From a virus (taxonomy: Duplodnaviria > Caudoviricetes), in IMG/VR virus record IMGVR_UViG_3300021091_002721, positions 1 through 34,140 of that record: a stretch of DNA of 34,140 nucleotides. The stretch is one strand, 5' to 3'. Below are positions 11,332 through 31,592 of the stretch, piece by piece (position 1 is the stretch's first letter; each line of letters starts with the position of its first letter). The notes beneath the pieces were generated by a model, which saw only the letters and a list, made by a program, of their open reading frames with translations, was not told the DNA's origin and ran no database searches. The translations under genes were made by a program, and so were the position numbers.

Positions 11332-11342
11332 GAGGAAAATAA

Positions 11343-11600: not shown

Positions 11601-11612
11601 TGCTATAAGTAG

Positions 11613-11650
11613 GATGGGTTATTGTTTGTAATAGCCCATCTTTACTTTTT
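11613..11650 (+). terminator. rho-independent terminator between convergent genes
   Basis: GATGGGTTATTG-tttg-TAATAGCCCATC followed by TTTTACTTTT. Confidence 0.75.
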
Positions 11651-13240: not shown

Positions 13241-13461
13241 CAGGTTCCGTCTGGCTTTAATGCTAAAGCATGTCTTGAAGTTACTTCTTCTGGCAGAGTA
13301 TAGTCAAATGCGTTTATAGAAATGGCACCCATCTCTTTTGCTTTTGCTGCTGCATCTTTTGGATATTCAAAACATTCAATACAAACATCATCTACTAAAA
13401 GTGGATACTTTCCGTCTTCACAACCATTAGAAGCGGCTCTCTCAATTCTAAAGGTAGGCAT
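13213..13461 (-). CDS. small hypothetical protein, paralog of 13461-13697
   Basis: TF...RAAS.GC....YPL..DD....CF..PKDAA shared. Confidence 0.7.
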   Translation of the reverse strand: MPTFRIERAASNGCEDGKYPLLVDDVCIECFEYPKDAAAKAKEMGAISINAFDYTLPEEVTSRHALALKPDGTWCHTFSNMA

Positions 13462-13697
13462 TACTTAAGAACCCATTTACCTTCTTCTTGAACTACAGTA
13501 AACAAGGCGTCTGATTCAAGATTGTCAACATCAAAAACAATTACTTCTGTTGCGCCATATTCATCTCTTGCATGATTTGCTGCATCTTTGGGCAAATAAA
13601 AACATCCCACTTGCTCGTCATCTTTAAATAACGGGTATTGTCTTTCACGGCAGCCCCCCGAAGCAGCACGTCCTACTTTAAAAGTACTCATATTCAC
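13461..13697 (-). CDS. small hypothetical protein, paralog of 13213-13461
   Basis: same shared motif; translationally coupled. Confidence 0.7.
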   Translation of the reverse strand: MNMSTFKVGRAASGGCRERQYPLFKDDEQVGCFYLPKDAANHARDEYGATEVIVFDVDNLESDALFTVVQEEGKWVLK

Positions 13698-14449
13698 ATT
13701 ATAGCATATTTTTTATCGCTGGATTTAACCTTTTCATAAAGATAATAGTCCGCATGATTTAATTCGTTTATTCTACCTATCCAAGAGTCTGGTATAGAAA
13801 AATCTAAAGGGTTGGGGATAGGGGTATTATGACCAGACCATTCGTAATCTGAAATTGCTTTTGTTATTTTATATTTCTTTAGAAAAATAGTGTTTAGAAA
13901 GTCTATTAGACGATCTCTACTCTCAACAGTTTCTACAATATAAGAGTCTAAGGCTTTATCTATTTCTGAAGGCTCAATGTTGTATTCTTTTAAACACCAA
14001 TCTGATCTCATCTTATCAATAGGCTCTGCAACCTTATTCCAAAGTTCTACGTCAACATAACCCAACAAAAATTTTGATTGTATGTTTGACGTTCCTCTAT
14101 AATAAGACTCATCGTATAAAAATTTTTCCATGAAGGACTGCGGTGTTCCGTATTCAGAACCAACAATTTTTGAATCTACTACCGTAAGACCTTGCCTGTA
14201 CATAAGCCAAAACCAACTAAGCCATTGTTCTTTTGGATTTCTAACTAATGAAAAAGAGATTATTCCGTCTACATATTTTTGTGGCAATTGCCCTATGTGT
14301 CCAGAAATATACTGTTTGTTTTTAAAATTATCTGTGTCTATTTTATCTGTGGGCTCTATAATATATTGAGCAAGTTCTTTTACTTGTTTAATGTAATGAT
14401 TTATAACTCCGCCAGACGTTCTTGGTATATGATTATGAAATATTGTCAT
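13694..14449 (-). CDS. sulfotransferase-family protein
   Basis: HNHIPRTSG, ISGH, VRNPKEQWLSW, ADYYLYE. Confidence 0.7.
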   Translation of the reverse strand: MTIFHNHIPRTSGGVINHYIKQVKELAQYIIEPTDKIDTDNFKNKQYISGHIGQLPQKYVDGIISFSLVRNPKEQWLSWFWLMYRQGLTVVDSKIVGSEYGTPQSFMEKFLYDESYYRGTSNIQSKFLLGYVDVELWNKVAEPIDKMRSDWCLKEYNIEPSEIDKALDSYIVETVESRDRLIDFLNTIFLKKYKITKAISDYEWSGHNTPIPNPLDFSIPDSWIGRINELNHADYYLYEKVKSSDKKYAIM

Positions 14450-14480
14450 TAAATAATTATATCATATGATACAATAAATT

Positions 14481-15047
14481 ATGCACAAAATATTAGGTCC
14501 AGGAATTGTATTATTTTATAATGTTTTTGATCAAGAGTACGTTGATTTTATAGAAACAAACTTTGCTGAACTTTTTCAATTAAAAATTAATAATCAAAAT
14601 GGGAGTTTAGTCAGAAAATCTTATTCGATACAAATGAGTGATTTCAAAAAAAATAATGAATATGTAAATGTTTTATATCAAGATTTTCAAAATAAACTAC
14701 AGGACTGTATTAATTTATACAAGTCAATATACGATGTTCAGAACATGGTTTTTGAATATGATGATGAAAACAATTCAATAGTTACTTTATTAAAATATGA
14801 AATAGACAATTCTGTTATATTTCATAGCGACACTTTAGGAATGGATAACAGGGTTGGCGCTGCACTTGCGTATTTAAATGACAATTATGAGGGCGGAGAA
14901 TTAGAATTTAAACATTTTGATATTAAAATAACTCCTCCAAAAAATAGTTTAATAATTTTTCCATCTAATTGGCCTTATGTCCATAGGTCAAGTCCAATAC
15001 TTAATGGTAAAAAATATGCATTAAGATGTTTTTTGGTTAGTAAATAA
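14481..15047 (+). CDS. 2OG-Fe(II) oxygenase
   Basis: HSD...YLNDNYEGGELEF...FPS..PYVH...GKKY. Confidence 0.85.
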   Translation: MHKILGPGIVLFYNVFDQEYVDFIETNFAELFQLKINNQNGSLVRKSYSIQMSDFKKNNEYVNVLYQDFQNKLQDCINLYKSIYDVQNMVFEYDDENNSIVTLLKYEIDNSVIFHSDTLGMDNRVGAALAYLNDNYEGGELEFKHFDIKITPPKNSLIIFPSNWPYVHRSSPILNGKKYALRCFLVSK

Positions 15048-15121
15048 AATTTGGAGGATCTTTTAGTTGTTTTTTTAATTTTCTCATATAATTCCATTTT
15101 TTAAATTTTCTATATATTGTT

Positions 15122-16012
15122 TTAAAAAACATTCCATTTCTCCTTTGCTGCTTTTAAAAAGCAATCAGCATAATACATGTTTATTAAAGTGCCAGCGTGA
15201 CCGTCTCTCTTCCTTAGATCATGCTCTGTTTTTTGCCAACCAGACTGGTATTGAGTTGCAATATAGTCTACCTGACTATCTATATCCATACTAACATACG
15301 AACTATCTAACATATTTAAAGTTTTTAAATTTTCTAAATCATTATAATACCAAGTAGACCATAAAATTTTGATATTGTTTAAGTTGCAATAATCTATAAA
15401 AAATCTCCAGCCAATAACAAAATTCATCAATGACTCAAAATATTCGCTGTTAGAAAGTATATTTGCGTCTTCTTTTTGAGACGGTCCACCAGGCAATTTT
15501 GGATATCTCTGCATATAGCAATAATCATTTGCGTTCATAGTGTTAAACTCAAACCTTCTAGATATATTGGGCAGTAAAATAAAAACATAGTCTGGCTTAC
15601 TATATTCACGTATATATATTCTTATATTGTCCATTATCATTTGCCATCCCCAGCCCGATTTAGACAAACTATACAAAGTTTTGTCTTCAATATTAGAATT
15701 TTGTAAAAAAATTGTTGGCCAAACTGTATCTAGGTTTCCACCTATCCCTTCGGTTTGAGAACATCCAGCAAACAAAACATGTGGTCTTAAAGGATTTTTT
15801 GTAAATTCATTAGATCTAAAAAAGTTTGAGTTGTATTTATATAAAACAGTTTTGTCGTCTATTACACCGATTTTCATTTCAGACTTAGTTATGGTTTCTT
15901 CTAAGACATCCGTTCCTTTATGCCAAGACAAATCAAACTTATCTGATATTGTTTCAGAAAGACCCCCCGTTACAATATTTTTTTTTAAAAGATATTCTTT
16001 GTCTATGCTCAC
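15122..16012 (-). CDS. SGNH/GDSL-like hypothetical protein
   Basis: FAGCSQTEG block I-like and DGHAG C-terminal motif; similar to 22119 and 23036. Confidence 0.55.
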   Translation of the reverse strand: MSIDKEYLLKKNIVTGGLSETISDKFDLSWHKGTDVLEETITKSEMKIGVIDDKTVLYKYNSNFFRSNEFTKNPLRPHVLFAGCSQTEGIGGNLDTVWPTIFLQNSNIEDKTLYSLSKSGWGWQMIMDNIRIYIREYSKPDYVFILLPNISRRFEFNTMNANDYCYMQRYPKLPGGPSQKEDANILSNSEYFESLMNFVIGWRFFIDYCNLNNIKILWSTWYYNDLENLKTLNMLDSSYVSMDIDSQVDYIATQYQSGWQKTEHDLRKRDGHAGTLINMYYADCFLKAAKEKWNVF

Positions 16013-16767
16013 CAGTTTCTCCTAAGATATATATCATAAAAATTTAATTTATGAAGAGCAATTGCGTCAACAGACCAGTTTTTATTATAATATAAAAACT
16101 CATTTACTGTTTGATATGTGCCATACTGAACCCCATCAATTATTCCGTCATAAATTAAATAATCATTTAGTCCTATTATTCCATCTACTGGTATTAATTT
16201 AGAGGCGTCATTTAAAACTTTTCTTGTTGCTGCTCTTCCATTATGTATGTCTATATAAATATAATCATATTCTTTACCGATAAAATTCGGAAGAATGTCT
16301 TCTGCATCACCCTTATATGTGGTCACGTTTCCATATTTACTAAATTTATTTTTAATAAAATCTTCTGATTCTTCGGCAGAAAAATCGTATGTATGCTTTA
16401 TTGGTTTACATTGACATTCACCAAACCTTCTCCAAGACCAACATTTCATATCTTGATCAAACCTGCAAACCAAATCAATAACTGACGGGCTGGCACTTTT
16501 GCAAACTATTTCAGAATAATATCCCCATGCCACACCAACTTCCATATATCTAATATTCTTTTTAAGGTTTTTGGCATACTCTTCTCTAGATTTATATATT
16601 TTGGCACTGTTTAATTGTTCTTGATTCAATTCTCTGGGATCTTCAATCTCATCTTTATTTAATTGTCGTATCTCATCTCGGCCAAAAGACTCTACTATCT
16701 TTTTGGATTTTCCGCTACTCTGTTCGACTTGTGCAATTATTTGTTTTTGCTCTTCTGTTAATGGCAT
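16009..16767 (-). CDS. class I SAM-dependent methyltransferase (Methyltransf_24-like)
   Basis: MEVGVAWGYYS, YDYIYIDIHN, GIIGLNDY. Confidence 0.75.
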   Translation of the reverse strand: MPLTEEQKQIIAQVEQSSGKSKKIVESFGRDEIRQLNKDEIEDPRELNQEQLNSAKIYKSREEYAKNLKKNIRYMEVGVAWGYYSEIVCKSASPSVIDLVCRFDQDMKCWSWRRFGECQCKPIKHTYDFSAEESEDFIKNKFSKYGNVTTYKGDAEDILPNFIGKEYDYIYIDIHNGRAATRKVLNDASKLIPVDGIIGLNDYLIYDGIIDGVQYGTYQTVNEFLYYNKNWSVDAIALHKLNFYDIYLRRNW

Positions 16768-16802
16768 AATAATGATTATACACTATGATATAATAAAGTA
16801 TT

Positions 16803-17465
16803 ATGAAATCTCCCAAAAAAGGACCTGCATATGAGCAATATATGCAACTTAAAAAATCACAAGAGTCAATTTCTAATCAAGATTTTGAACCTATAATTGT
16901 TAATAATATTTTTTCTACAGAAGACATAGAGCATTTGTATGAGATAGTTAACAATACTCCAGAAGAAAAAACACAAATTCAAAAATGGGGTGGGATGAAG
17001 GCTTGGCATATAGACTTAGGTCCAAGAATTAAAGAAAAAATTAATGAGGCAGTAAAAAGATCTTTGGGGGATTACGTTAGATTAGTAGAAGATCATTCTT
17101 TTTGCAGATATAGTATGGAATATGGTTGGATGACTAAACTGTTTCCACACACAGACATGAGAGACTCGCAAAGAATAACTTTTGACATACAAGTTAAAGC
17201 AGACGAAGAATGGGGAGTTGTAGTAGAAGATGTAGAATATTTTTTAGAAGATAATCAAGCATTAGTTTTTGCTGGCACACAACAGCCTCATTGGAGAAGA
17301 GCAAAAGAATTAAAACCAGGAAGTCATCAAGATATGATATTTTGTCATTTAGAGTATGTAAACGATACACCATACGATGAGCATCAAGATCAAATACTTA
17401 ATGAAAGAAATAGATTTTTTTCTGAGTATTATGATATGCATCCAGATCCTAGCACTTTTTATTAA
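16803..17465 (+). CDS. 2OG-Fe(II) oxygenase-like protein
   Basis: LFPHTD...ALVFAG...HWR. Confidence 0.65.
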   Translation: MKSPKKGPAYEQYMQLKKSQESISNQDFEPIIVNNIFSTEDIEHLYEIVNNTPEEKTQIQKWGGMKAWHIDLGPRIKEKINEAVKRSLGDYVRLVEDHSFCRYSMEYGWMTKLFPHTDMRDSQRITFDIQVKADEEWGVVVEDVEYFLEDNQALVFAGTQQPHWRRAKELKPGSHQDMIFCHLEYVNDTPYDEHQDQILNERNRFFSEYYDMHPDPSTFY

Positions 17466-17466
17466 A

Positions 17467-17646
17467 ATGAAAAATTTAGAAGAATCAATTAAAAATATAT
17501 TATTTAATATAGGAAAAGAAATTAAAGTTCATAAATTAATAGACGGAAACTTTATATTAGAAATAGATTACGACAAATACTGTAATGAAATTATTAAAGT
17601 TTTTAATGAATGTTTAGAAGAAAGTGACTCAAAAGATGTTCGGTAA
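17467..17646 (+). CDS. small hypothetical protein
   Basis: ATG 17467 just after upstream stop; MKNLEESIKNILF... Confidence 0.6.
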   Translation: MKNLEESIKNILFNIGKEIKVHKLIDGNFILEIDYDKYCNEIIKVFNECLEESDSKDVR

Positions 17647-18400
17647 ACTACATTTAATAGGATCTCCAATAGGCAATATGGTCGATGTCTCTAAAAGACT
17701 TACTGATGCATTGCTTGATGCAAAGTATATATGTGTTGAAGATATAGAAAGATTTAAAGAATATTGTAGTTTTAATAATTTTTCTTACACTGCCGAATTA
17801 ATAGATATATGTTTTTCTTTAAATAACAATAGAGAAAAAGACAGCAAAGACAGAGTTATATCTTTGCTTAAAAGCGGTCAAGATGTTTATATTGTTTCAG
17901 ATGAAGGGATGCCAGGGTTGGCAGATCCTGGAGAAGTTTTAGTAAAAGAAGCAATAATAAATAATATAGAAATTATAACAACTCCAGGCCCGTCAGTTGC
18001 TCTTGCTGCAGCATCTATTTCAAATACATTAAACAATTTTATATTTGAAGGGTTTATGTCAAATTTGGATGAAGACAGACACAGTAAGTTTAAGTTTCTA
18101 CAAATGTCTTCTATACCCATGATTTTTCTTTTACATAATCCAAACAATAGACCCATAGACAAAGACGATAAAATTCATATGATACACAATTGTTTTGATT
18201 ATGATGTATTTGTTGAAGAGTGTATTTATTTTTTTGGAGAAGAAAGAAATGCTGTTTTTTGTATAGATCTAACTACAGAAAAACAAAAAATAATTAGAGG
18301 AAAATTAAAAGATATTAAAAAATATTTTACAGATAATAAAATTTTAGGAAACATTTGCTTGGTTGTTGACGGCAAAACAAATCAAAAAATAACTATTTAG
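17636..18400 (+). CDS. rsmI: RsmI-like tetrapyrrole-methylase-fold methyltransferase, copy 1
   Basis: GKLHLIGSPIGNMVD, VSDEGMPGLADPG, PGPSVALAA, FIFEGF. Confidence 0.75.
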   Translation: MFGKLHLIGSPIGNMVDVSKRLTDALLDAKYICVEDIERFKEYCSFNNFSYTAELIDICFSLNNNREKDSKDRVISLLKSGQDVYIVSDEGMPGLADPGEVLVKEAIINNIEIITTPGPSVALAAASISNTLNNFIFEGFMSNLDEDRHSKFKFLQMSSIPMIFLLHNPNNRPIDKDDKIHMIHNCFDYDVFVEECIYFFGEERNAVFCIDLTTEKQKIIRGKLKDIKKYFTDNKILGNICLVVDGKTNQKITI

Positions 18401-18513
18401 TTTTTTTATTGTACTCTCCGTATTTACCTAGGATTGCCTTTATTCTTCCATCTTTTCTTAATCTTACAATCATTCCGTCTTTGATCTGAATTGGATTAAA
18501 TTTATGATTTGGT

Positions 18514-19104
18514 TTATATTGTCCAGAAGACATTTCCGCTACCACGTTTTCTTGTACTTTGTTTTTGTATAGGATTAAATATGTCTGAAAATATTTTTTT
18601 ATCTTTTTCAGAATTTACAATTCTCCTTGACCAAGAATAGCCAGCATCCCCACCCCATGCCAACCACATAATATACCCATTAGACGGATTAGATTGATTT
18701 CCCCAATCCTTCCCCTTTTTATCTACTTCGTGACGAGAAAAATAAGAATACATTCTTTTAACTGTGCTTAGTGAAAGTGATTCGCCTCTTGCTAATTGTC
18801 CTGCACGAGTCCATCCTACTGATGTACCTGCACCTTTTGCTTTACCTTGTTCTTTAAGTCTAATTGCTTTTTTTGCTGCTGCTCTCGCACCTGCTGGTGG
18901 AGAATAGCCGTCTGCTTTTTCTACAAAATCTGTTTCGTATGTAACTGTGTCATCATCTTCCCAAAGATCATCTGCTTTTTTTGCAGGAATACAATTAGGA
19001 ACTGGCTTACCATTTTTTCCAGGCTTCATTCCTCTTTGAACATATCCTTCCCAGCAAGGAGCCTTCTTTTCTACTTCATCTGGGCAGCATTCATGATATG
19101 GCAT
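18514..19104 (-). CDS. phage protein, possibly virion/head-associated
   Basis: CWEGY...GKPVPNC motif and RMYSYFSRH...WLAWGGDAG motif that I recognise from phage proteins. Confidence 0.55.
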   Translation of the reverse strand: MPYHECCPDEVEKKAPCWEGYVQRGMKPGKNGKPVPNCIPAKKADDLWEDDDTVTYETDFVEKADGYSPPAGARAAAKKAIRLKEQGKAKGAGTSVGWTRAGQLARGESLSLSTVKRMYSYFSRHEVDKKGKDWGNQSNPSNGYIMWLAWGGDAGYSWSRRIVNSEKDKKIFSDIFNPIQKQSTRKRGSGNVFWTI

Positions 19105-19127
19105 AAGAATATTATAGCATGTTAAAA

Positions 19128-19154
19128 GAGCAGTTTATGCACATGCTCAGGTGC
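19128..19154 (-). ncRNA. small H-type pseudoknot motif, copy 1
   Basis: GCAC-CUGAGCAU-GUGC-AUAAAC-UGCUC, 20 nt downstream of hsp20 stop. Confidence 0.7.
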
Positions 19155-19174
19155 TCAGTATGACCTACTGTTAT

Positions 19175-19594
19175 TTATTTGATTTTGATTGTTTTTGGTT
19201 TCTTTTCTTCGGGAATGTTTCGTTCCACAAAGATGTCAAGAATACCATCTGCCATTTCAGCACGATCTACCTCCATATACTCTCCAAGAGCAAAGGTGCG
19301 TGTGAATTTTCTGGTTGCGATACCCTTATGTAGAACCTCATTTGAGGACTCTTCGGTTTTCTCACCCTTTACCACCAAACTTCCATTATCCACAGAAACC
19401 TCTACCTCATCCTTGCTGAATCCAGCAATTGCTAAAGATAGTTTGTAAGTATCCTCATCAAGTTTTACCAAATCATACGGTGGGTAGGATTGACGAGTTG
19501 CCTCACGATGGATATTTGAAAGACGGTCCAACTCTCTGTTGAAACCAATAAAAAAAGGATCCTTAAAAAGATCCAATGACCATGAACTTACCAT
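19175..19594 (-). CDS. hsp20: small heat-shock protein Hsp20 (IbpA-like)
   Basis: SYPPYDL, LAIAGF, LHKGIATRKFTRTF, ADGIL..IPEEKKP. Confidence 0.95.
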   Translation of the reverse strand: MVSSWSLDLFKDPFFIGFNRELDRLSNIHREATRQSYPPYDLVKLDEDTYKLSLAIAGFSKDEVEVSVDNGSLVVKGEKTEESSNEVLHKGIATRKFTRTFALGEYMEVDRAEMADGILDIFVERNIPEEKKPKTIKIK

Positions 19595-19599
19595 TTTTC

Positions 19600-19615
19600 C
19601 TCCTTGTTAAGCGAG
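19600..19615 (-). promoter_or_regulatory. ROSE-like RNA thermometer hairpin sequestering the hsp20 SD
   Basis: CUC-G-CUU AAC AAG-GAG: UCGCU with bulged G opposite AAGGAG. Confidence 0.6.
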
Positions 19616-19656
19616 TCATGTTGTACCCCCCTTTGAGCAGGTACATTAATATTATA

Positions 19657-20238
19657 TCATAAACTTCCAGTAAAGTCTATATTAATAACACATCTAAAAT
19701 CACTGTTTATTGGGTTAGATGAAGCATGATATGTTAAGCCATCAAAAACTACAGCCTTTCCAGATTCTGGAGATATGCTTGTCATAATACTTAAATCATT
19801 AATTTTAGAACCATTATATTTTTCATTAAAAAAAATCGTATCTCCATCTGAATCGTTTACATAATATAAAAAAACTAAATGATCTTTGTCCGCATCAACG
19901 TGTGGATAATGTATTCCTTTGTTGCCATTTTTTAATATCATATTTGCTTTAATTCTAACTATATCTTTTACGGTTATATTATTTTTAACAGCAAATTTAT
20001 TTAATATAGATATACAATTATCTGCAAATGGTGATTTTTTTTGTTTATTAAACATTGCCATATGAACAAACTGTAGACTATCCACTACATCATTTCTATC
20101 AATTATTGCATAACTATCTGTTTTTATATTTGTAGATTTATTAAATATCCAAGGAAAATTCCATTTTGGTTCTTCATACATAACATTTTGTAAGTATTTA
20201 ATTTCTTCAATTGATAAAAACTCTTTATCTATAATCAT
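19657..20238 (-). CDS. 2OG-Fe(II) oxygenase-like protein
   Basis: PHVD...LYYVNDSDGDT...FDG..YH...R.VIN; ATG 20238 preferred to avoid overlap with divergent gene. Confidence 0.75.
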   Translation of the reverse strand: MIIDKEFLSIEEIKYLQNVMYEEPKWNFPWIFNKSTNIKTDSYAIIDRNDVVDSLQFVHMAMFNKQKKSPFADNCISILNKFAVKNNITVKDIVRIKANMILKNGNKGIHYPHVDADKDHLVFLYYVNDSDGDTIFFNEKYNGSKINDLSIMTSISPESGKAVVFDGLTYHASSNPINSDFRCVINIDFTGSL

Positions 20239-20272
20239 TAAATCATTGTACCACATAGTGTATAATTTATAT

Positions 20273-21028
20273 ATGACATACGGAAAATTATTTTTAGTTG
20301 GATTGCCAATAGGTAATTGGGAAGACATGTCTGTTAGATCATATCAATATATTAAAAATGCAAAAAATATAGTTATTGAAAGAGAAGAAGCATTTGAAAA
20401 AATTTGGCCACGGTTAGGTCTTGAAAAGCCAAATGTAAATACTATATCAATAGAGTATGATTCTGATGGAGGAGAACCAGGGGAAGCATATGAATTACAT
20501 AATATGGAAAAAATATTACAATTATTAAAAAATGGAGAGGATGTATATTTAATTTCTGATGAAGGAATGCCAGGTGTGGCTGATCCAGGGGCTAGGATTG
20601 TAAAAAGATGTATATCAGAAGGTATTGATGTTACGTCTACACCAGGACCATCTGTTGTGATGGCAGCAGTTGCAGTCACAGGTACTATGCACAACTTTAT
20701 ATTTGAATCTTTTTTACCTTTTGTCAAAGATGAAAGGTTGTTGTTCTTAGAAGAAAGAAAAGATTATAGATACCCAATGGTTTTGATGCTAAGAAATGCA
20801 AAACGTGGTCAAGAGTTTCATGATGAAATACCAAACTTTTTAGAAGAGGCAATTATTGTTTTAGGAAAAACAAGAAGGGCTGCACTTTGTTACAATTTAA
20901 CAATGAAAAATGAAAAAGTAATTCATAACACTTTAGAAGGTTTAAAATTATATTTTAATAATGAACAAAGAAACATATTAGATCAGATATGTATTGTTAT
21001 AGACGGAAAACATAATACTATGATTTAA
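20273..21028 (+). CDS. rsmI: RsmI-like methyltransferase, copy 2
   Basis: GKLFLVGLPIGNWED, ISDEGMPGVADPG, PGPSVVMAA, FIFESFLP. Confidence 0.75.
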   Translation: MTYGKLFLVGLPIGNWEDMSVRSYQYIKNAKNIVIEREEAFEKIWPRLGLEKPNVNTISIEYDSDGGEPGEAYELHNMEKILQLLKNGEDVYLISDEGMPGVADPGARIVKRCISEGIDVTSTPGPSVVMAAVAVTGTMHNFIFESFLPFVKDERLLFLEERKDYRYPMVLMLRNAKRGQEFHDEIPNFLEEAIIVLGKTRRAALCYNLTMKNEKVIHNTLEGLKLYFNNEQRNILDQICIVIDGKHNTMI

Positions 21029-21246
21029 AACAGCCCAGCATGCGAACCGTCGCAAAATGGTTTGTTTTTTGATGCATTGCAAACGCATAATTTTTTTCTT
21101 TTTAAATTACTAGATTTTAAAACTATTATTTCACCAGTGTCACACACCTTAACGGTAAAATTATCATTTTCCAAAGATATAATTTCTGCAGCCTTTTTAT
21201 TATGCTGTCCTTCGTCAGTTATCATGACTATCATTCCTGGTTTCAT
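21025..21246 (-). CDS. CDGSH iron-sulfur domain protein
   Basis: LCVCNASKNKPFCDGSH. Confidence 0.85.
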   Translation of the reverse strand: MKPGMIVMITDEGQHNKKAAEIISLENDNFTVKVCDTGEIIVLKSSNLKRKKLCVCNASKNKPFCDGSHAGLF

Positions 21247-21249
21247 AAA

Positions 21250-21390
21250 CTACCTTTCATAATCGTCTTCTTCTTTATCCCAAGCATCTTCCAAGTCGTC
21301 CATTGATTGTGCTAATTTAGCAAAAGAAATTGAAATAAATGTAGCAGCAATGCCAACGGCAACAAACAATGATATAAATATTTTTTTCAT
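21250..21390 (-). CDS. small membrane protein (46 aa)
   Basis: MKKIFISLFVAVGIAATFISISF...acidic tail; ATGA overlap with speD stop. Confidence 0.55.
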   Translation of the reverse strand: MKKIFISLFVAVGIAATFISISFAKLAQSMDDLEDAWDKEEDDYER

Positions 21391-21773
21391 CTGTAATCCT
21401 TTCCTGAGACCTCTTCAACAAATCCATTTTCTCTATCAAACAAAACAAATTCTAAAGAATCAACTGTAAAAGTTTGTTTAAAAATTTGTAATACTTTTTC
21501 AAGTTCTAAACTTCCGCAGGTATAAAGATCAAACTGAACTAAAGCAGGGTCAGCCTCATCCCATATATGAAATGCTATATGGCTAGTCTCTATCATAACT
21601 ACGGCAGTTAAGCCCCTGTTACCCTTCTTGTCAACATAACTTGCAAAAGGACCTTGTACAATCTTCATATCGATTTTGTCTACAAGGTTTTTTAGAAACT
21701 CAATACCCTGTTGTTCCGTATCAATTGGATTCTTAACTTTGGCATTAACCAATAAATGTTTGTGATATATCAT
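21387..21773 (-). CDS. speD: S-adenosylmethionine decarboxylase proenzyme
   Basis: HKHLL, GLTAVVMIETSHIAFHIW (self-cleavage Ser), DLYTCG; GAGG upstream of ATG 21773. Confidence 0.85.
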   Translation of the reverse strand: MIYHKHLLVNAKVKNPIDTEQQGIEFLKNLVDKIDMKIVQGPFASYVDKKGNRGLTAVVMIETSHIAFHIWDEADPALVQFDLYTCGSLELEKVLQIFKQTFTVDSLEFVLFDRENGFVEEVSGKDYR

Positions 21774-21794
21774 TTTGTTTTCCTCATATAACAA

Positions 21795-21968
21795 TTATAG
21801 CGCATGCGCCAACACTCCTAATAAAAAGCCAATTAAAAAAGATCCAAGAGCAACAGACCAATAGTAAGTTTTTTGTAGGTGGTCACGAATAATATCTCGT
21901 ATTACATTATCAGGAATGATAAGATCAGGACCAAGGCCATCTAAATCTGAAAAACGGTATTCTTTCAT
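21795..21968 (-). CDS. small membrane protein (57 aa)
   Basis: AAGGAG RBS; C-terminal TM WSVALGSFLIGFLLGVLA. Confidence 0.6.
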   Translation of the reverse strand: MKEYRFSDLDGLGPDLIIPDNVIRDIIRDHLQKTYYWSVALGSFLIGFLLGVLAHAL

Positions 21969-22069
21969 TTATGCTCCTTCATATGTCTATTAAGTGTATC
22001 ATGGGCAAAAATACCAAATCTAACCTGAATTTCTTTTTTGCATACGGGACACACAACAAATCGATTCAT
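21965..22069 (-). CDS. tiny C2H2-type zinc-finger protein (34 aa)
   Basis: MNRFVVCPVCKKEI...LNRHMKEHK; TTGACT-17-TATAAT promoter at 22104-22076. Confidence 0.6.
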   Translation of the reverse strand: MNRFVVCPVCKKEIQVRFGIFAHDTLNRHMKEHK

Positions 22070-22118
22070 ATAACCATTATATACTTTATGATTATAAAAG
22101 TCAAGTACAATAGATTAT

Positions 22119-23039
22119 ATGGATCATGAAAAATTGTTTGGTGATGTTATTATTCATAATAGGGACATTCTTAGTCCAAAGACCATAGTAAACGCTAGAA
22201 TGCAAAATGTATTTGATAAGGATGAAGAATTAAGGCAGAAGGCCCACCCTTACGTTCCCGACAGCATTGGACGCTGGGAAGATGACTATTACTATACATA
22301 TAACGTACATACAGGGTTGTCGCAATTTAATAAAATACTGTACAAATTAAATAAACAAGGTTTTAGATCTAACAATTTTAATACTGTAAATAAAGAAAAA
22401 TTTACAGTTTTGTATAGTGGATGTTCAGTAACATTTGGACAAGACTTACCAGAAGAAATGTTATGGACAAAACTAGTAACAAAAGAATTATCTAAAAATA
22501 AAGAAGTTGAAGAATACAATTTATCTATAATGGGTGGTTCTATATTTTTAACACTTAGCAATATATGTGCCTTTATTAATACTTATGGAATGCCAAATTT
22601 AATAATTGCATTAATGCCAGACATAACAAGAACAATAACTTTTGATCCAACCACTTCAGAGTTTTTTGATTTAACTCCAAAAATGATAAATGCTAACGCT
22701 AAAGATTTTATTCATCAATTAATGCCAGAAAATTTATTATTAAATGATTTGTTAATGTTTAAATTGTTGGAGTTATTATGTAAAAATTCTGGTTCTAGAT
22801 TTTTATTTTCTTCATATGAAAAATTAACTAATGATTGTTTTGTTATGTTTGCAGACGATCTAGATTGCTGGTTTGAGTCTGGATTGATTTTTCCGAGACC
22901 ACCAGTGCTAAGTGCATTTGCTGTTAAACCAGATTACGGAGATCACGAATCCCCATATTGGGAAATAGCAGGAGATAAAAAACATCCAGGCGGTGGGTGG
23001 CACGATAAATTTGCCAAAAGAGTATTTGAGATTTTATGA
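22119..23039 (+). CDS. SGNH/GDSL-like hypothetical protein
   Basis: YKLNKQGFRS, YSGCSVTFG, NLSIMGGS, DKKHPG. Confidence 0.6.
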   Translation: MDHEKLFGDVIIHNRDILSPKTIVNARMQNVFDKDEELRQKAHPYVPDSIGRWEDDYYYTYNVHTGLSQFNKILYKLNKQGFRSNNFNTVNKEKFTVLYSGCSVTFGQDLPEEMLWTKLVTKELSKNKEVEEYNLSIMGGSIFLTLSNICAFINTYGMPNLIIALMPDITRTITFDPTTSEFFDLTPKMINANAKDFIHQLMPENLLLNDLLMFKLLELLCKNSGSRFLFSSYEKLTNDCFVMFADDLDCWFESGLIFPRPPVLSAFAVKPDYGDHESPYWEIAGDKKHPGGGWHDKFAKRVFEIL

Positions 23040-23923
23040 CTTTAGATATTACTAAAAGTATATATGATAATATAACCGCTTTTGATCATTCGCAATTTCA
23101 TATCAAAAGTGTCGGTGGCTCCATGCTCACAAGAGAGGGTTATTGGGAAAATGATTATTTTTATACTAAAAGTACTAATGCTGAAGATGTAATATATAAG
23201 ATAAATAAAGATGGATTTAGAACAGATAATTTTGAGCCTTTAGATAAGAATAACTTTAACATATTGTACAGCGGATGCTCTTTTAGTTTTGGACAGGATA
23301 TCCCACAAGAATTTAGATGGTCTGATTTTACAACAGAGTACTTTCAAAACACAACAAATGCTAAAGGCTATAACCTTTCTATTATGGGGGCTTCAATTCA
23401 TTTAATAATAAAAAATATATGTGCCTTTATCAATAGATATGGAATACCAGATGTGTTAGTAATGATGTTGCCAGACATTCACCGAAAGATGATTTACAGT
23501 ACATATAAAGATCAGTTTATACCAGCCCAACTAAACGTTGATAAAAACAGTACGATTGACTGGATGTATGAAGAGTTATTAAAATATAAAGAAAATTATA
23601 TACCGCAAGAAAATGCAATAGTTTATCTAACAATGATAGATTTATTAGAAAATATGTTTAAAGCAAATGGTTCTATATTTTTGTGGAGCACGTGGCACAT
23701 TGATTCTGAATCAGTATTTCGTAATTTTGCTGACAAGTACAGTTCTTATTTTAAAATACCCACACTTTATCCAGACTATACTAAAAAGGATTACGGCAAC
23801 AAAGAATTAAAATATTGGTTTCTCGCTGGGGACGGTCAGCATCCTGGCGGTGGTTGGAATAAAGAAGTTTCTGAAACAGTTATAGAACTAATAAACAAAC
23901 GCTTAAAGTTCGGCGGAAAATAG
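23036..23923 (+). CDS. SGNH/GDSL-like hypothetical protein, tandem paralog
   Basis: YKINKDGFRT, YSGCSFSFG, NLSIMGAS, DGQHPG. Confidence 0.6.
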   Translation: MTLDITKSIYDNITAFDHSQFHIKSVGGSMLTREGYWENDYFYTKSTNAEDVIYKINKDGFRTDNFEPLDKNNFNILYSGCSFSFGQDIPQEFRWSDFTTEYFQNTTNAKGYNLSIMGASIHLIIKNICAFINRYGIPDVLVMMLPDIHRKMIYSTYKDQFIPAQLNVDKNSTIDWMYEELLKYKENYIPQENAIVYLTMIDLLENMFKANGSIFLWSTWHIDSESVFRNFADKYSSYFKIPTLYPDYTKKDYGNKELKYWFLAGDGQHPGGGWNKEVSETVIELINKRLKFGGK

Positions 23924-23956
23924 AAATGTCAAACCATTTTATGCTAGACACTAGCA

Positions 23957-24493
23957 CTAAGGTTTAATAGTTCTACTATCCACCTTATTATAATATTCTG
24001 ATAACCTCTTATCCATAATACTCTTCAATACTATTTCTGGATACATCGATTCTTTAAATGCATCTTGATAAGGTTCTGACCACACCTCAAAAGAGATCTC
24101 TCTGCCCATAATTTCATTAAATAAAGAATCTTTGCCTGTCTTGGTTTTCCAATTTGTATCTTCAAGGGCAAAATGATCAAACAAGGCCTTGGTCAAAATA
24201 TCTAAATGTTTGAAGGATTCATAGTTAATAATGGTTTTAGCATTTTCATATATGTAATCTGAATATATCCTATATTTTTCTATAGCAGCAGAAGTTTCAC
24301 ATCCTAAGTAAATTAGATCAGCAACTGCCTCATGTGGTTTTCTACATATTCCAATGACGTGATCTACACTGTCTTCTGGCATATCTGGTCCAAAGGTATA
24401 TTTAAACGATACGTGAGGTATCTCAAATTTAATCTGTATATATTCCCCAACAGTGGATTTTGTTCCAGGTAGGGTAAGAAGATGTACTCTCAT
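23957..24493 (-). CDS. hypothetical protein (weak sulfotransferase-like layout)
   Basis: 178 aa ORF; ICRKP.EAV and INYESF segments. Confidence 0.55.
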   Translation of the reverse strand: MRVHLLTLPGTKSTVGEYIQIKFEIPHVSFKYTFGPDMPEDSVDHVIGICRKPHEAVADLIYLGCETSAAIEKYRIYSDYIYENAKTIINYESFKHLDILTKALFDHFALEDTNWKTKTGKDSLFNEIMGREISFEVWSEPYQDAFKESMYPEIVLKSIMDKRLSEYYNKVDSRTIKP

Positions 24494-24672
24494 TGAATAT
24501 CCTTTATGACTGGATCAAGCCTATCCCAATGACCACCATTGTTTCCTTGATAGACCTGTCCTGTTTCTTTATCTACAAGAAGCCATTTAGTGGGTGCTTT
24601 GGTTTTTACCATAAGTTCGACGGGATTTATAAGTTCTTCGTAATCCCTATTATCTCTATTACCCAATAGCAA
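24490..24672 (-). CDS. hypothetical phage protein
   Basis: 60 aa; TKAPTKWLLVDKETGQVYQG. Confidence 0.65.
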   Translation of the reverse strand: MLLGNRDNRDYEELINPVELMVKTKAPTKWLLVDKETGQVYQGNNGGHWDRLDPVIKDIQ

Positions 24673-24757
24673 TGCCTATTCCAGTAAACACCAATACAAT
24701 AATACCTATCAGGAATAAAAAGGTTCTAAAGTTAGCATCAGCCTTATTCTTGTTCAT
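24659..24757 (-). CDS. small membrane peptide (32 aa)
   Basis: MNKNKADANFRTFLFLIGIIVLVFTGIGIAIG fills the intergenic gap. Confidence 0.5.
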   Translation of the reverse strand: MNKNKADANFRTFLFLIGIIVLVFTGIGIAIG

Positions 24758-24759
24758 AA

Positions 24760-24885
24760 TCACCCCATATACATATATTTAAAATGTTTTTTACAGACAT
24801 CGATGATAGCGCCAGTAATTTTGTCTGGTTGAATATACTCTGCTGCGTTATCGCAATAGTAACATTTTGTTAACGTGTCTGCCAT
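24760..24885 (-). CDS. small zinc-binding protein (41 aa)
   Basis: CYYC...VCKKH; TGCTATAAT just upstream. Confidence 0.55.
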   Translation of the reverse strand: MADTLTKCYYCDNAAEYIQPDKITGAIIDVCKKHFKYMYMG

Positions 24886-24900
24886 ATTTCTATTATAGCA

Positions 24901-25056
24901 CTATGCATGAGTATACCATGATGGTGTAGGTTCGTCATCTATGGCCTCAACTATCTGTTCCGCCAATTTTTTAGATAAGGCATCCTTGTGTTTGCCTTTT
25001 ATATGGTCATATATTATTTCTACGATAATGTCTATTTTGGATTCACGAGATATCAT
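24901..25056 (-). CDS. small hypothetical protein (51 aa)
   Basis: TAATG coupling with upstream gene; MISRESKIDIIVEII... Confidence 0.55.
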   Translation of the reverse strand: MISRESKIDIIVEIIYDHIKGKHKDALSKKLAEQIVEAIDDEPTPSWYTHA

Positions 25057-25559
25057 TATTTTGTCCTTACATAAAAAAATAAAATCTTAACATAATCTCC
25101 ATCATTGAAGATTAGTTCTGGTCTATGGTGATATTGGTTACATGGACTAAAAATAATAGCACTATTATTTTCTAAGGTAAAGCAGTCCTTTTCTATGCAT
25201 ATTGGCCAATCTACGTTTGCATCTATTAGATAATCAAAAGTTAAACCCTGCTCAGTATGAATAGGATCTTTGTGTGGTGGAAGGTTAGGGTTTGTGTGTT
25301 TGTTATTATATTCACTGTAGGTTATGTTATCTAGGAATGTACCCTCATCAAAAAATGAAAGCACTCTATCACATATCTCTTTTGCTATAGGGTGTGTTTT
25401 TTCAAATACAGGAACACCATCAGTTGTTAAAACGATGTCTTCTCTACCTCGTTCTAAAGCATATTGAGTACTTACCTTATCACTGCTGTCTAAGATTAGT
25501 TGATTAATAAAATCTATCTGAGCCTGTGTAAATACGTCTTTTATCATGGCAAAGTCCAT
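25056..25559 (-). CDS. 2OG-Fe(II) oxygenase-like protein
   Basis: LPPHKD...WPI...AIIF...HHR; similar layout to 16803. Confidence 0.65.
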   Translation of the reverse strand: MDFAMIKDVFTQAQIDFINQLILDSSDKVSTQYALERGREDIVLTTDGVPVFEKTHPIAKEICDRVLSFFDEGTFLDNITYSEYNNKHTNPNLPPHKDPIHTEQGLTFDYLIDANVDWPICIEKDCFTLENNSAIIFSPCNQYHHRPELIFNDGDYVKILFFYVRTK

Positions 25560-28452: not shown

Positions 28453-28495
28453 GTTCTACGTAATAAAAAAATTTTGTGAGATTTTTAATCGGCTA

Positions 28496-28536
28496 CGTAA
28501 TAAAATAAAATTATGATATTTTTAGTCGGGCACTTG
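28496..28536. repeat. bipartite boundary motif, copy 2
   Basis: CGTAA ... AGTCGGGCACTTG abutting tRNA 3' end. Confidence 0.65.
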
Positions 28537-28623: not shown

Positions 28624-28650
28624 GAGCAGTTTATACTCTTGCTCAGGAGT
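28624..28650 (-). ncRNA. small H-type pseudoknot motif, copy 2
   Basis: ACUC-CUGAGCAA-GAGU-AUAAAC-UGCUC between DUF932 stop and tRNA. Confidence 0.7.
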
Positions 28651-28659
28651 TGCAATTAC

Positions 28660-29676
28660 TTACGCAACTGCTAGAACATCTTTCACTACTTTGAGCAGAC
28701 GATTTTTTTCTGCTGTGATAGCAGGGTCAAAACCACTTGAACCCATTAGTATTGATTCAGTAAGACCACGCTTACCTCCACGATACCAATCAATTCTTTC
28801 TGTGAGTGCGTTCCAAGCACCCCAAGCAGTTCCAGAAATCATGCCGTTAAACTCACCAGTATAGATGTCATTGATTGTGTCAACTTTTTTAGTCCATTTA
28901 GTGAGAGCCTGTTTAGCATTTTTATCAGGCTTTGGATAAGCAGCGAGAACAATATCATTGAATTGTTGCGCTGTGATTTCTTTCTCAATCATAGCCTTAG
29001 CCATTATTGAAAACTCATCCATGTAAGCATTAGCAACAGCAAGAGCCTCACGAGCCTGTTGCACTTTACCATTGGCAGATTGCGTATGACGAATCTTGAA
29101 AGATTGCTTAACGCCATCCTTCTTTTTCTTGCCACCTAGAGCAACAGCAAGAGTGTTAGCGCATACAACACGAACAGGGGTGACAGACGCTTGAATTGCA
29201 ATAGAGCCATCGTGTGATGTATTAACAAGAAGATAAGTCTTGATAACATCAGCAACACCACTAGGGTCTAATACAGTTTCACGCTGTAAGGCAAGAGAGC
29301 CAAATACAACACGACCACCACGCAACGAGCCAGCAGTTTCCCAACGACCTCCGCCATCAAGAATTGCATCACCAAATGAGAATAGGTCTTCGTTTTGTAG
29401 TGGAACATAGCGCTCACCTACAACACCAAGAACATCTGTCTGAGTGTTATCTGTGGGGTTAGTTCTCACAACATACTGATAAGATTTATCTGAGGTGAGA
29501 TAATTTGGAATATCTAATTCCTCTAATCTAACATTCCAATTATTTAGATTAGCAGCAACTAACATTTCGTTAGTATTTTTTTCTTCTGTGAAAACTGTGC
29601 CTAAGCCATGCCAAGCAGGTTCTCTGAAAGAAGCAAATGAAGCAACGCCATTTTGCGTTTCTAATTCATGAGCCAT
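28660..29676 (-). CDS. DUF932 family phage/plasmid protein (TIGR03299-like)
   Basis: MAHELE...REPAWHGLG, LGVVGERYVPLQN, ETAGSLRGG, NTSHDGS, VRVVCANT, IRHT, GTAWGAWNALTE. Confidence 0.9.
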   Translation of the reverse strand: MAHELETQNGVASFASFREPAWHGLGTVFTEEKNTNEMLVAANLNNWNVRLEELDIPNYLTSDKSYQYVVRTNPTDNTQTDVLGVVGERYVPLQNEDLFSFGDAILDGGGRWETAGSLRGGRVVFGSLALQRETVLDPSGVADVIKTYLLVNTSHDGSIAIQASVTPVRVVCANTLAVALGGKKKKDGVKQSFKIRHTQSANGKVQQAREALAVANAYMDEFSIMAKAMIEKEITAQQFNDIVLAAYPKPDKNAKQALTKWTKKVDTINDIYTGEFNGMISGTAWGAWNALTERIDWYRGGKRGLTESILMGSSGFDPAITAEKNRLLKVVKDVLAVA

Positions 29677-29705: not shown

Positions 29706-29734
29706 ATCTTAGCATAATGTATAGGAAAATGCAA
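29706..29734 (-). promoter_or_regulatory. sigma70-type promoter
   Basis: TTGCAT-17-(TGC)TAAGAT. Confidence 0.65.
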
Positions 29735-29762: not shown

Positions 29763-29806
29763 CGTAAAACGGACATTTAGGTATAAAACGGGCCGACCAC
29801 TTTTTG
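29763..29806. repeat. bipartite boundary motif, copy 3
   Basis: CGTAAAACGGACATTTAG ... GGCCGACCACTTTTTG. Confidence 0.7.
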
Positions 29807-29818
29807 AAGAAAAACTTT

Positions 29819-30040
29819 AAGCAGTTTCACTGGACGTGCTTAGGTCCCATGCTGCTACAGCCAGAAAGGATCAATCAACTGCAGCACCGATTCTCTACGA
29901 AATCACGCACCGCCAAGGTCATAGGCCGACGGTTATGACGCCCGTCGGGTTGGTGCGCTAAAAATAGAGCCTCTAGGCTTGCATATCCAGACATCCCAAG
30001 GTCAACGGATAGCGACATTGACCTTAGCATTGTCAGGAAT
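29819..30040 (-). ncRNA. candidate multi-domain structured ncRNA ending in pseudoknot copy 3 (29819-29847)
   Basis: GC-rich non-coding gap with stems AAGGUCAA/UUGACCUU, CGCACC/GGUGCG, CCGACGG/CCGUCGG, GUCAUA/UAUGAC, UGCUGCAG/CUGUAGCA, then GGAC-CUAAGCAC-GUCC-AGUGAAAC-UGCUU. Confidence 0.65.
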
Positions 30041-30047
30041 TCTTATT

Positions 30048-30515
30048 TCAGTATTCTGCAGTAGAAATATTATCTACTTCTACTTCTACATCAACATCAT
30101 GAGACGAAGAATCAGCCCAAACATTTAAATCAATATCCTCGACATCAAATGTTGAAAGTTCATTAAATGGCACCCTTACAACTCCTGTGATTGTTGCAGT
30201 TGCTTCAAAGTGAATTTCCTTTTCAGGGGCAAATCCAAATATTTGACAAATCTCAGATACAATATCTTCTGCAGATGTGTCGTTTTCTAACCATCCGTGA
30301 AGTTCGCCTTCTAACTGGCGATGAAGTTTGTTGTGATTGTCAACCACTCGTTGGTAATAACGAGCATTTTCTAATTGATATTCAATATCAGTTACTTTTA
30401 CTGTGGGGTAGTGGTTTGTTACCCCTCTTCCTTCATCATTATCAATAACTTTATAAGTTACTAATTGATTTGGGTTGTAGTGGTCAGGCACTACGATTTC
30501 ATTAGTCGTTTCCAT
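30048..30515 (-). CDS. acidic hypothetical phage protein
   Basis: 155 aa, GGAGGA RBS. Confidence 0.75.
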   Translation of the reverse strand: METTNEIVVPDHYNPNQLVTYKVIDNDEGRGVTNHYPTVKVTDIEYQLENARYYQRVVDNHNKLHRQLEGELHGWLENDTSAEDIVSEICQIFGFAPEKEIHFEATATITGVVRVPFNELSTFDVEDIDLNVWADSSSHDVDVEVEVDNISTAEY

Positions 30516-30774
30516 TTACTATATCCTCCATAGATTCTATTTCATTTATAGTAGATAGCATATCATTTAATTCTGATTCTGTCAATAATGCGCTAGTTAC
30601 TAAACTTGTTGTTAAAGAAGCAAGCAGAGCAGAATACTGATACAGTTCTTTAATAAACTCCTCGTCATTAACTTCATTTCTAATGTCTAGAATGTGCTTA
30701 ACACACACCAACATCATTTCGTCATGAACGGCGTCTCTTGACGCTTCTTGTAATTTGATAGCGGTTGCTAACAT
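30502..30774 (-). CDS. hypothetical phage protein
   Basis: ATG 30774 after AGAAAGGA. Confidence 0.7.
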   Translation of the reverse strand: MLATAIKLQEASRDAVHDEMMLVCVKHILDIRNEVNDEEFIKELYQYSALLASLTTSLVTSALLTESELNDMLSTINEIESMEDIVNGND

Positions 30775-30895: not shown

Positions 30896-30900
30896 AGGTG

Positions 30901-31030
30901 GAGCAGTTTAGACACTAAAGGATTTCCTCCATACTCAGGTGTTTGGGAGTGTCAAGGGACATTGATAACAAGATCAACATAGTTGCAACTACATCGCAGG
31001 TTATCGTGAACGCAGACTGGCACCCAATTC
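30901..31030 (-). ncRNA. candidate structured ncRNA ending in pseudoknot copy 4 (30901-30942, with inserted hairpin)
   Basis: UUGG-GUG/CAC-CCAA enclosing stem, AUGUAGU/ACUAUGU hairpin, GAUAAC/GUUAUC; then ACAC-CUGAGUAU-[GGAGGAAAUCCUUUA]-GUGU-CUAAAC-UGCUC. Confidence 0.5.
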
Positions 31031-31048
31031 TATTTAGTTTTATTTGGT

Positions 31049-31075
31049 GAGCAGTTTTATTTCATGCTCAGGAAA
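31049..31075 (-). ncRNA. small H-type pseudoknot motif, copy 5
   Basis: UUUC-CUGAGCAU-GAAA-UAAAAC-UGCUC, 6 nt after stop of 31082 ORF. Confidence 0.7.
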
Positions 31076-31562: not shown

Positions 31563-31592
31563 GAGCAGTTTTGGTTGTCATGCTCAGGACAA
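31563..31592 (-). ncRNA. small H-type pseudoknot motif, copy 6
   Basis: UUGUC-CUGAGCAU-GACAA-CCAAAAC-UGCUC. Confidence 0.7.

What the first reader, a model, noticed from the sequence alone, without database searches (positions are those of the whole stretch)
29819..30040. About 220-nt GC-rich multi-pseudoknot non-coding RNA candidate
Seen (minus strand), four modules in a row. (a) UCC-U-GACA/UGUC-U-GGA enclosing an AAGGUCAA/UUGACCUU hairpin whose loop UAUCC can pair with downstream GGAUA. (b) CUCUA/UAGAG and CGCACC/GGUGCG enclosing a CCGACGG/CCGUCGG hairpin whose loop GUCAUA pairs with UAUGAC (pseudoknot). (c) A hairpin with UCCUUUCU in its loop. (d) The repeated 3' pseudoknot. No long ORF covers it and it is visibly more GC-rich than its flanks. 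I do not recognise it as tRNA, tmRNA or a known ribozyme.
Basis: partly seen in the sequence, partly recalled or inferred. Interest (0 to 1): 0.75.

Follow-up and report, generated by a model that had tools for sequence, protein, structure and literature searches.

The report
Stacked RNA modules ending phage mRNA
A freshwater phage that likely infects actinobacteria places, right after an early gene's stop codon, four folded RNA blocks: two shared with many related phages (a loop copying the ribosome's mRNA-docking tail and a small knot that likely caps the message) and two found in no relative, one of which may imitate the start-codon tRNA.

Summary
The structure is real, but it is better read as a stacked 3' tail of an early phage gene than as one new multi-pseudoknot RNA. 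It fills the gap between the stop codon of a 155-codon gene and the promoter of a DUF932 gene. It folds far better than shuffles (z -3.95) and matches no Rfam family. Module d is a covarying H-type pseudoknot found behind stop codons throughout this phage group. Module c is a covarying hairpin whose loop carries the last eight bases of actinobacterial 16S rRNA, complementary to the phage's early ribosome-binding sites. Earlier notes of this scan already describe both. Modules a and b are stable (z -6.1 and -3.4) but occur only in near-identical records, so covariation cannot be tested; relatives carry other, shorter modules in the same slot. The proposed pseudoknot in a is chance-level and sterically unlikely; that in b is possible only with a shortened stem. 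Most likely d caps the transcript and c damps early translation, with a and b as lineage-specific cargo. Untested lead: b's loop resembles the initiator-tRNA anticodon arm (about 2% by chance).

The parts
30557..30585 (-). sigma-70-type promoter-like site (10 of 12, extended TG) that likely starts the transcript carrying the element
   Evidence: consensus match only (25 sites found in the region, 22 expected by chance)
30522..30529 (-). ribosome-binding site of the 155-codon gene; candidate cis target of loop c
30048..30515 (-). 155-codon gene of unknown function whose stop codon precedes the element
   Evidence: no named family; relatives
29986..30038 (-). module a: irregular 20-bp hairpin (12-bp core 30027-30016 with 30007-29996, 8-nt loop); found in no relative
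   Evidence: z -6.1; no homologue
29893..29969 (-). module b: outer stem 29969-29964/29898-29893 and stem 29958-29952/29911-29905, enclosing hairpin 29948-29942/29932-29926; found in no relative
   Evidence: z -3.4; no homologue
29931..29944 (-). top of hairpin b: 13 bases identical to the actinobacterial initiator-tRNA anticodon arm with one inserted base; its CAU can dock on the AUG at 29923-29918
   Evidence: 67 of 3,000 shuffles reach the score with any of 45 anticodon arms
29853..29886 (-). module c: hairpin whose loop (29876-29863) shows UCCUUUCU, the last eight bases of actinobacterial 16S rRNA (anti-Shine-Dalgarno)
29818..29847 (-). module d: small H-type pseudoknot (stem 1 29847-29844/29835-29832; stem 2 29842-29837/29823-29818), repeated behind genes
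29807..29814 (-). U-rich run after the pseudoknot; likely near the 3' end of the transcript
   Evidence: sequence
29706..29734 (-). promoter-like site of the next gene (TTGCAT, 17 nt, TG-extended TAAGAT), conserved in relatives
   Evidence: read from sequence; not listed by the consensus scan
28660..29676 (-). DUF932 gene downstream, with its own ribosome-binding site at 29690-29682
   Evidence: PF06067, E 6e-48

Best explanation
The stretch is a stack of four folded RNA modules lying between an early gene's stop codon and the next promoter, and it is likely the 3' untranslated tail of that gene's mRNA, in which the terminal pseudoknot would cap the message against decay and the 16S-like loop would pair with ribosome-binding sites of early mRNAs to damp their translation. 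Shown: position, folds, covariation of c and d, their reuse behind many genes, the identity of the loop with the 16S tail, and the swapping of the modules upstream of c between relatives. Inferred: that it is transcribed, that d sets or protects the 3' end, and that c pairs with its own gene's site (5'-3' closure) or with other early sites in trans. Modules a and b are a lineage-specific insert that replaces the short partner hairpin which in relatives can pair with the 5' half of loop c. They likely act as protected cargo: a as a 5' boundary or double-strand processing site that could release the tail as a stable small RNA, b as a display scaffold for a binding partner.
For: Position: starts 9 nt after the stop, ends about 85 nt before the next promoter, no promoter-like site of its own. 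Module d: all 80 loci fetched by the DUF932 protein carry at least one copy, always on the gene strand; 228 of 230 distinct sites lie outside ORFs and 107 of 220 within 30 nt of a stop. With stem 2 left free, 214 of 232 sense-strand sites have a complementary stem 2 against 1 of 10 on the other strand, with 28 stem-1 and 12 stem-2 sequence types. In the cultured Streptomyces phage NootNoot the same stop-to-promoter slots hold GC-rich terminator-like hairpins and no such pseudoknot, so d occupies the place of a 3'-end signal. Module c: in 34 distinct copies 8 of 9 stem pairs show two-sided changes and 96% of 525 cells pair, against 31-44% for slid controls, while the CCUUUCU loop core stays nearly invariant. 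The 16S gene ends in CUCCUUUCU in all 3 of 5 actinobacterial genomes where it was found. 7 of 10 minus-strand AG(A/G)AAGG words precede an AUG, all in the early block. The loop pairs better with its own gene's site than with the next gene's in 23 of 27 loci. An upstream AUGAAAG hairpin goes with a complementary CUUUCA in the loop in 25 of 25 copies and 0 of 9 without it. Swapping: relatives whose upstream protein is 62-93% identical carry other modules in the slot; at least a dozen recurring modules occur in 221 stop-to-pseudoknot segments. DUF932 homologues lie near the genome end, in two places per record, in the 15 best cultured phages, which fits an early block.
Against: No expression or end-mapping data. 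The window is one of the 4 of 27 loci where the loop pairs no better with its own site (-9.4) than with the next gene's (-10.9), and an equilibrium fold of the whole mRNA gives near-zero probability for the 5'-3' pairing. The gene family keeps the GGAU-type site with or without module c (17 of 19 against 10 of 15), so co-evolution of loop and site is not shown. Only 112 of 317 pseudoknots are followed by five or more U in ten bases and many sit inside operons, so d is not a standard terminator. The copies compared are related and not independent, and the c+d set was fetched with a pattern that fixed the pseudoknot letters. Nothing supports the roles given to a and b beyond their fold. The true host's 16S was not available.
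Confidence: 0.55

Rival explanations
1. Modules b and c together mimic the two RNAs that read a translation start (initiator-tRNA anticodon arm and 16S tail). The tail is released as a small RNA that blocks initiation regions or serves as bait for proteins that bind or cut the initiator anticodon arm.
For: 13 identical bases with one insertion, centred on the hairpin loop; the best of 45 anticodon arms is the initiator's (score 11, next 7.5); 67 of 3,000 shuffles reach it with any arm, 0 of 3,000 with the initiator arm alone. The CAU can pair with a downstream AUG (70 of 5,000 by chance). In relatives loop c itself reads CAU directly before the anti-SD. VapC toxins cut initiator tRNA at the anticodon stem-loop (PMC8522696, passages read).
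Against: Found after the fact. The loop is 9 nt and lacks the third G-C pair of the initiator stem. A viral scan for this loop gave 76 distinct hits with chance-like stem extension and no second family member. Other 3' stacks show no excess of anticodon-arm matches; 2 of 221 reach the same score with other tRNAs.
Confidence: 0.1
2. The whole 220 nt is one free-standing non-coding RNA with its own integrated fold, possibly a switch in which the 5' arm of a alternates between partners.
For: Most stable of the stop-to-pseudoknot segments of 120 nt or more, among 286 collected. The 5' arm of a can form 11 bp with a strand of b (2 of 2,000 shuffles) and resembles an antisense copy of the pseudoknot's 5' half (the only intergenic case among 4 such matches in 104 loci; 12 of 400 shuffles).
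Against: c and d occur without a and b in all relatives; no own promoter. The alternative folds cost 13-17 kcal/mol and have probability near 1e-9. With all of a+b as search space the pairing with its own pseudoknot is not special (892 of 1,000 shuffles).
Confidence: 0.15
3. Modules a and b are a recent, neutral or near-neutral insertion (an inverted duplication plus captured GC-rich DNA) in an otherwise ordinary 3' tail.
For: No homologue in any search; the few records holding it are identical over the element. Both arms of a resemble pseudoknot halves, as an inverted duplication would give.
Against: Module b is a three-helix nested fold (1 of 500 shuffles) and a folds much better on the gene strand, with G-U pairs (a+b z -4.1 against -1.7 on the other strand), which points to selection on RNA structure.
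Confidence: 0.12
4. The insert is a small protein gene (51 codons, 30030-29875) or a self-cleaving ribozyme.
For: An open frame covers a, b and part of c.
Against: No protein shares three words with it; GC 53% against 36% in the neighbouring gene. No hammerhead core and no hit of a loose HDV-like descriptor that 9 of 20 shuffles satisfy; no Rfam ribozyme match.
Confidence: 0.05

Closest known systems
icaR mRNA 3' UTR of Staphylococcus aureus (PMC3868564, abstract read)
   Same: A pyrimidine motif in the 3' UTR complementary to the Shine-Dalgarno site of the same mRNA, blocking initiation.
   Different: Here the motif is shown in a covarying hairpin loop, is identical to the 16S tail, fits many early genes, is followed by a pseudoknot, and no pairing has been tested.
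Cuckoo RNAs of Alphaproteobacteria (PMC4615179, abstract read)
   Same: Modular hairpins with variable stems and a fixed anti-SD-like loop.
   Different: Cuckoo RNAs repeat a CCUCCUCCC loop in 2-4 hairpins as small RNAs; here there is one UCCUUUCU loop among unlike modules in a phage gene tail.
STAXI motif, RF01728 (PMC2864571, passage read)
   Same: A small repeated pseudoknot near DNA-handling or antirestriction genes of mobile DNA.
   Different: STAXI is 2-3 tandem copies with UUCG loops in Enterobacteriales; no match here. This pseudoknot is dispersed behind stop codons.
Coremin / Watson-Crick coremin exonuclease-resistant RNAs and luteovirus-type H-type pseudoknots (PMC10321173, passages read)
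   Same: Very small H-type fold with adenosines predicted to contact the stem-1 minor groove.
   Different: Those block a eukaryotic 5'-3' nuclease or shift frames in RNA viruses; d lies at the 3' end of phage genes and has a different loop consensus.
Intercistronic and terminal stem-loops (REP elements, intrinsic terminators, phage T7 early RNase III sites; recalled, no call)
   Same: Structured RNA right behind stop codons that ends, stabilises or processes mRNA.
   Different: Here the end element is a pseudoknot, mostly without a U-tract, and it carries interchangeable upstream modules.
Bacterial initiator tRNA anticodon arm (RF00005)
   Same: 13 bases around CAU identical, shown at the top of a hairpin.
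   Different: One inserted base, 9-nt loop, no D or T arms, no acceptor end; ARAGORN and Rfam see no tRNA.

Membership tests
Any Rfam 15 family | covariance-model score above gathering, or a significant E-value | tested here: not met
   17 related loci gave tRNAs only
freshwater-2 (RF02980) | match to the model | tested here: not met
   two weak matches elsewhere in the window, none at the element
STAXI (RF01728) | tandem pseudoknot repeats matching the model | tested here: not met
tRNA / tmRNA | cloverleaf or tRNA-like domain with tag frame | tested here: not met
Small self-cleaving ribozymes (hammerhead, HDV-like, twister, pistol) | catalytic core words and nested double pseudoknot | tested here: not met
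   (descriptor and core words recalled, crude); Rfam
Small self-cleaving ribozymes | self-cleavage in vitro | not testable with these tools
   bench test needed
icaR-type 3'-5' UTR pairing | 3' UTR motif complementary to the mRNA's own SD | tested here: met
   complementary, though with G-U pairs in this window
icaR-type 3'-5' UTR pairing | pairing forms and blocks initiation; compensatory evidence | tested here: inconclusive
   near-zero predicted probability in the window; no co-evolution shown
Cuckoo RNAs | 2-4 hairpins each with a CCUCCUCCC loop | tested here: not met
   sequence; definition
Intrinsic terminator | GC hairpin followed at once by a U-tract | tested here: not met
   none called at the element; U-rich tail after 112 of 317 pseudoknots
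Initiator-tRNA anticodon-arm mimic | 7-nt loop with CAU on three consecutive G-C pairs | tested here: not met
   9-nt loop, one inserted base
Initiator-tRNA anticodon-arm mimic | sequence match beyond chance and conserved in homologues | tested here: inconclusive
   67 of 3,000 shuffles; no homologue

The most novel reading that the evidence does not exclude
The phage builds a small RNA that imitates both RNA readers of a translation start at once, the initiator-tRNA anticodon arm (module b) and the 16S anti-Shine-Dalgarno tail (module c), capped by a pseudoknot, to block initiation or bait host proteins that target initiator tRNA; it is one assembly from a phage-wide kit of plug-in RNA modules stacked in early 3' UTRs.
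Probability: 0.1. Interest if true: 0.85.

Novelty: new variant of a known kind. Interest (0 to 1): 0.5.

Why it matters
Phage early regions are usually read as arrays of small proteins. This phage group also swaps folded RNA modules behind those genes faster than the proteins diverge, which suggests an overlooked RNA layer of early control or counter-defence in phages of abundant freshwater bacteria. The element gives three small, separately testable parts: a pseudoknot in the place of a terminator, a 16S-tail loop, and an orphan fold. The first two were noted before in this scan; this window adds the longest-folding example seen and two modules with no known relative.

Tried and rejected
Homologues of a and b were sought and not found. 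BLAST against phage and plasmid records. Loci of three neighbouring proteins in viral contigs (best 80 of 472, 5 of 5, best 80 of 380) and one in metagenomes (25 loci). Single-sequence covariance models: b on 50 whole records, 84 and 79 loci; a on 100 loci. BLAST of a+b on 50 records (5 of the 6 short non-self hits were inspected and lie in open frames). These searches need exact words or close similarity, so diverged copies could be missed. Expression: no RNA holder listed. Long-range switch between a and b, a and loop c (1,113 of 2,000 shuffles as good), or a and d: possible on paper, disfavoured in energy. Protein-coding reading rejected. No match of 9 or more bases between the element and a 16S gene in either orientation, so only the 8-base tail is shared. 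Literature: nine full-text searches listed nothing describing this element, the pseudoknot or anti-SD loops in phage 3' UTRs. The supplement of PMC5737381 could not be read. In PMC10690425 three supplementary files were searched without a pseudoknot-word hit, but three others were not searched and the three largest cannot be read; seven candidates there lie within 25 bases of DUF932 genes, so modules c or d may be among its 10,006 candidates.

Full report
Setting. The window is a linear virus record estimated 31% complete. It encodes a WhiB-like protein, which PMC6802176 uses as the mark of actinobacterial phages (passages read), and complete relatives are 105-123 kb. The finding lies on the minus strand in a block of small genes, between the stop codon of a 155-codon gene without a named family (30515-30048) and a promoter-like site (29734-29706) ahead of a DUF932 gene. 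The 15 best DUF932 homologues among cultured phages are Streptomyces phages that carry the gene about 1-2 kb from the genome end, in two places per record. I infer an early, host-takeover block.

The observation. The RNA folds at -84.1 kcal/mol, z -3.95, against z -1.63 for the other strand and z -3.0 with DNA parameters. GC is 51% against 33%. Rfam has nothing at gathering score or at E up to 10 over the element, and freshwater-2 and STAXI do not match. Of the three pseudoknots only d is supported. The one in a is a 5-bp match seen in 484 of 5,000 random stretches; it competes with the outer stem and would need 7 nt to span 12 bp. The one in b is a 6-bp match (70 of 5,000) with a 2-nt linker over a 7-bp stem; opening two or three pairs makes it feasible at a cost of 4-8 kcal/mol, about what the new helix returns, so it is marginal.

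Module d. My loose pattern finds six sites in the window including this one, and at least one in each of the 80 loci fetched by DUF932, all on the gene strand. Of 230 distinct sites 228 lie outside ORFs, and 107 of 220 with a measured distance are within 30 nt of a stop; small genes missed by my caller inflate the rest. With stem 2 unconstrained, 214 of 232 sense sites have a complementary stem 2 against 1 of 10 antisense sites; stem 1 takes 28 forms and stem 2 takes 12. In Streptomyces phage NootNoot the equivalent stop-to-promoter gaps hold GC-rich hairpins and no such pseudoknot on the gene strand. That positional match is my main reason to infer a 3'-end role. Against a plain terminator, only 112 of 317 sites have a U-rich tail, and many lie between genes of one operon.

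Module c. A scan for the loop plus pseudoknot gave 47 viral loci; with other loci there are 34 distinct copies. The stem covaries (8 of 9 pairs with two-sided changes; 0 of 500 shuffles; slid controls far lower) while the loop core stays nearly invariant. The copies are related, so this is not a formal probability. The loop's UCCUUUCU equals the last eight bases of 16S rRNA in the three actinobacterial genomes, of five searched, where the gene was found; none is the known host. Seven of ten minus-strand AG(A/G)AAGG words precede an AUG, all in the early block. Next to the shared eight bases the loop has A where 16S has C, which matches the GGAU site of the upstream gene family; the loop pairs better with its own gene's site in 23 of 27 loci (one of the four exceptions is a miscalled start). 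The window is an exception, its predicted mRNA fold does not form the pairing, and the site is the same in loci without c. In 25 of 25 copies with an upstream AUGAAAG hairpin the loop has the complementary CUUUCA, and in 0 of 9 without it, which suggests a loop-loop contact that a and b have replaced in this lineage.

Modules a and b. They are present only in records identical over the element. Relatives whose upstream protein is 62-93% identical have different, shorter tails. All further searches were blank (see Tried and rejected). Across the group at least a dozen other recurring modules are stacked in varying order behind early genes; 30 of 286 stop-to-pseudoknot segments are 150 nt or longer, and this one is the most stable of those of 120 nt or more. 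So long stacks are normal for the group, but these two blocks are orphans. Two weak leads remain. First, the top of hairpin b matches the initiator-tRNA anticodon arm at 13 bases with one insertion; any of 45 arms from genome G052 reaches that score in 67 of 3,000 shuffles. The test was chosen after seeing the match, the loop is not canonical, a viral scan found no family, and other stacks show no excess of such matches. Second, the 5' arm of a looks like an antisense copy of the pseudoknot's 5' half (12 of 400 shuffles) and can pair with a strand of b (2 of 2,000), but these folds cost 13-17 kcal/mol.

Mechanism. I commit, at about 0.55, to a 3' UTR stack. The gene is transcribed from the promoter-like site at 30585-30557; d caps the transcript; c pairs with early ribosome-binding sites to damp translation; a and b are added cargo, a possibly a processing or 5' boundary hairpin (an analogy to phage T7 RNase III sites, recalled) and b a display scaffold. 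Structure, position and conservation of c and d are shown; every functional step is inferred.

Relation to what is known. It works most like the icaR 3' UTR (abstract read) and, in modular design, like cuckoo RNAs (abstract read); it is a member of neither. STAXI (passage read) and coremin RNAs (passages read) are analogues of d only. Nine literature searches listed no description of this element; PMC5737381 (passages read) and PMC10690425 (passages and part of the supplements) have supplements I could not see that may hold c or d. Earlier notes of this scan describe the stop-codon pseudoknot and the anti-SD loop in other genomes and initiator-arm mimics in other phages; none matches this sequence. 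They are leads, not support.

Verdict.

Noticed in passing
window 31564-31588, 31050-31072, 30902-30939, 28625-28647, 19129-19151 (all minus strand): Five more copies of the small pseudoknot, behind genes, one 12 nt before the tRNA-Asp gene.
   Followed up: yes
window 30900-31075 minus strand; L004:2068-2309, L073:2899-3125, L057:3051-3238, L037:3026-3222: Other long 3' stacks built from recurring modules (G-rich-loop hairpins, a hairpin with invariant AGGCUGAUUA loop, a stem with a conserved GUUC/AAGUCCC internal loop, a second pseudoknot type), in varying order. None matched Rfam in 17 loci.
   Followed up: partly
L004:3143-3259 and 24 similar loci: An AUGAAAG hairpin loop always goes with a complementary CUUUCA in the anti-SD loop (25 of 25 against 0 of 9), a likely loop-loop contact.
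   Followed up: partly
DUF932 start regions in 34 loci: The DUF932 ribosome-binding site reads AAGGAU in 1 of 19 loci with module c and 6 of 15 without, as if it avoided the loop's best complement; confounded by relatedness.
   Followed up: no
window 30038-30016: The 5' arm of module a is close to an antisense copy of the pseudoknot's 5' half, the only intergenic case in 104 loci.
   Followed up: partly
window 28456-28529: A 37-nt direct repeat, two copies 84% alike, just downstream of tRNA-Asp.
   Followed up: no
window 29770-29775 and L546 intergenic gaps: A TGTCCG word (or its reverse, CGGACA) lies between the 3' structure and the next promoter both in these phages and in Streptomyces phage NootNoot.
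   Followed up: no
window 9442-25559: A run of accessory genes: tryptophan-halogenase-like, sulfotransferase-like, several 2OG-Fe(II) oxygenase-like, methyltransferase, Hsp20 and SAM decarboxylase-like.
   Followed up: no
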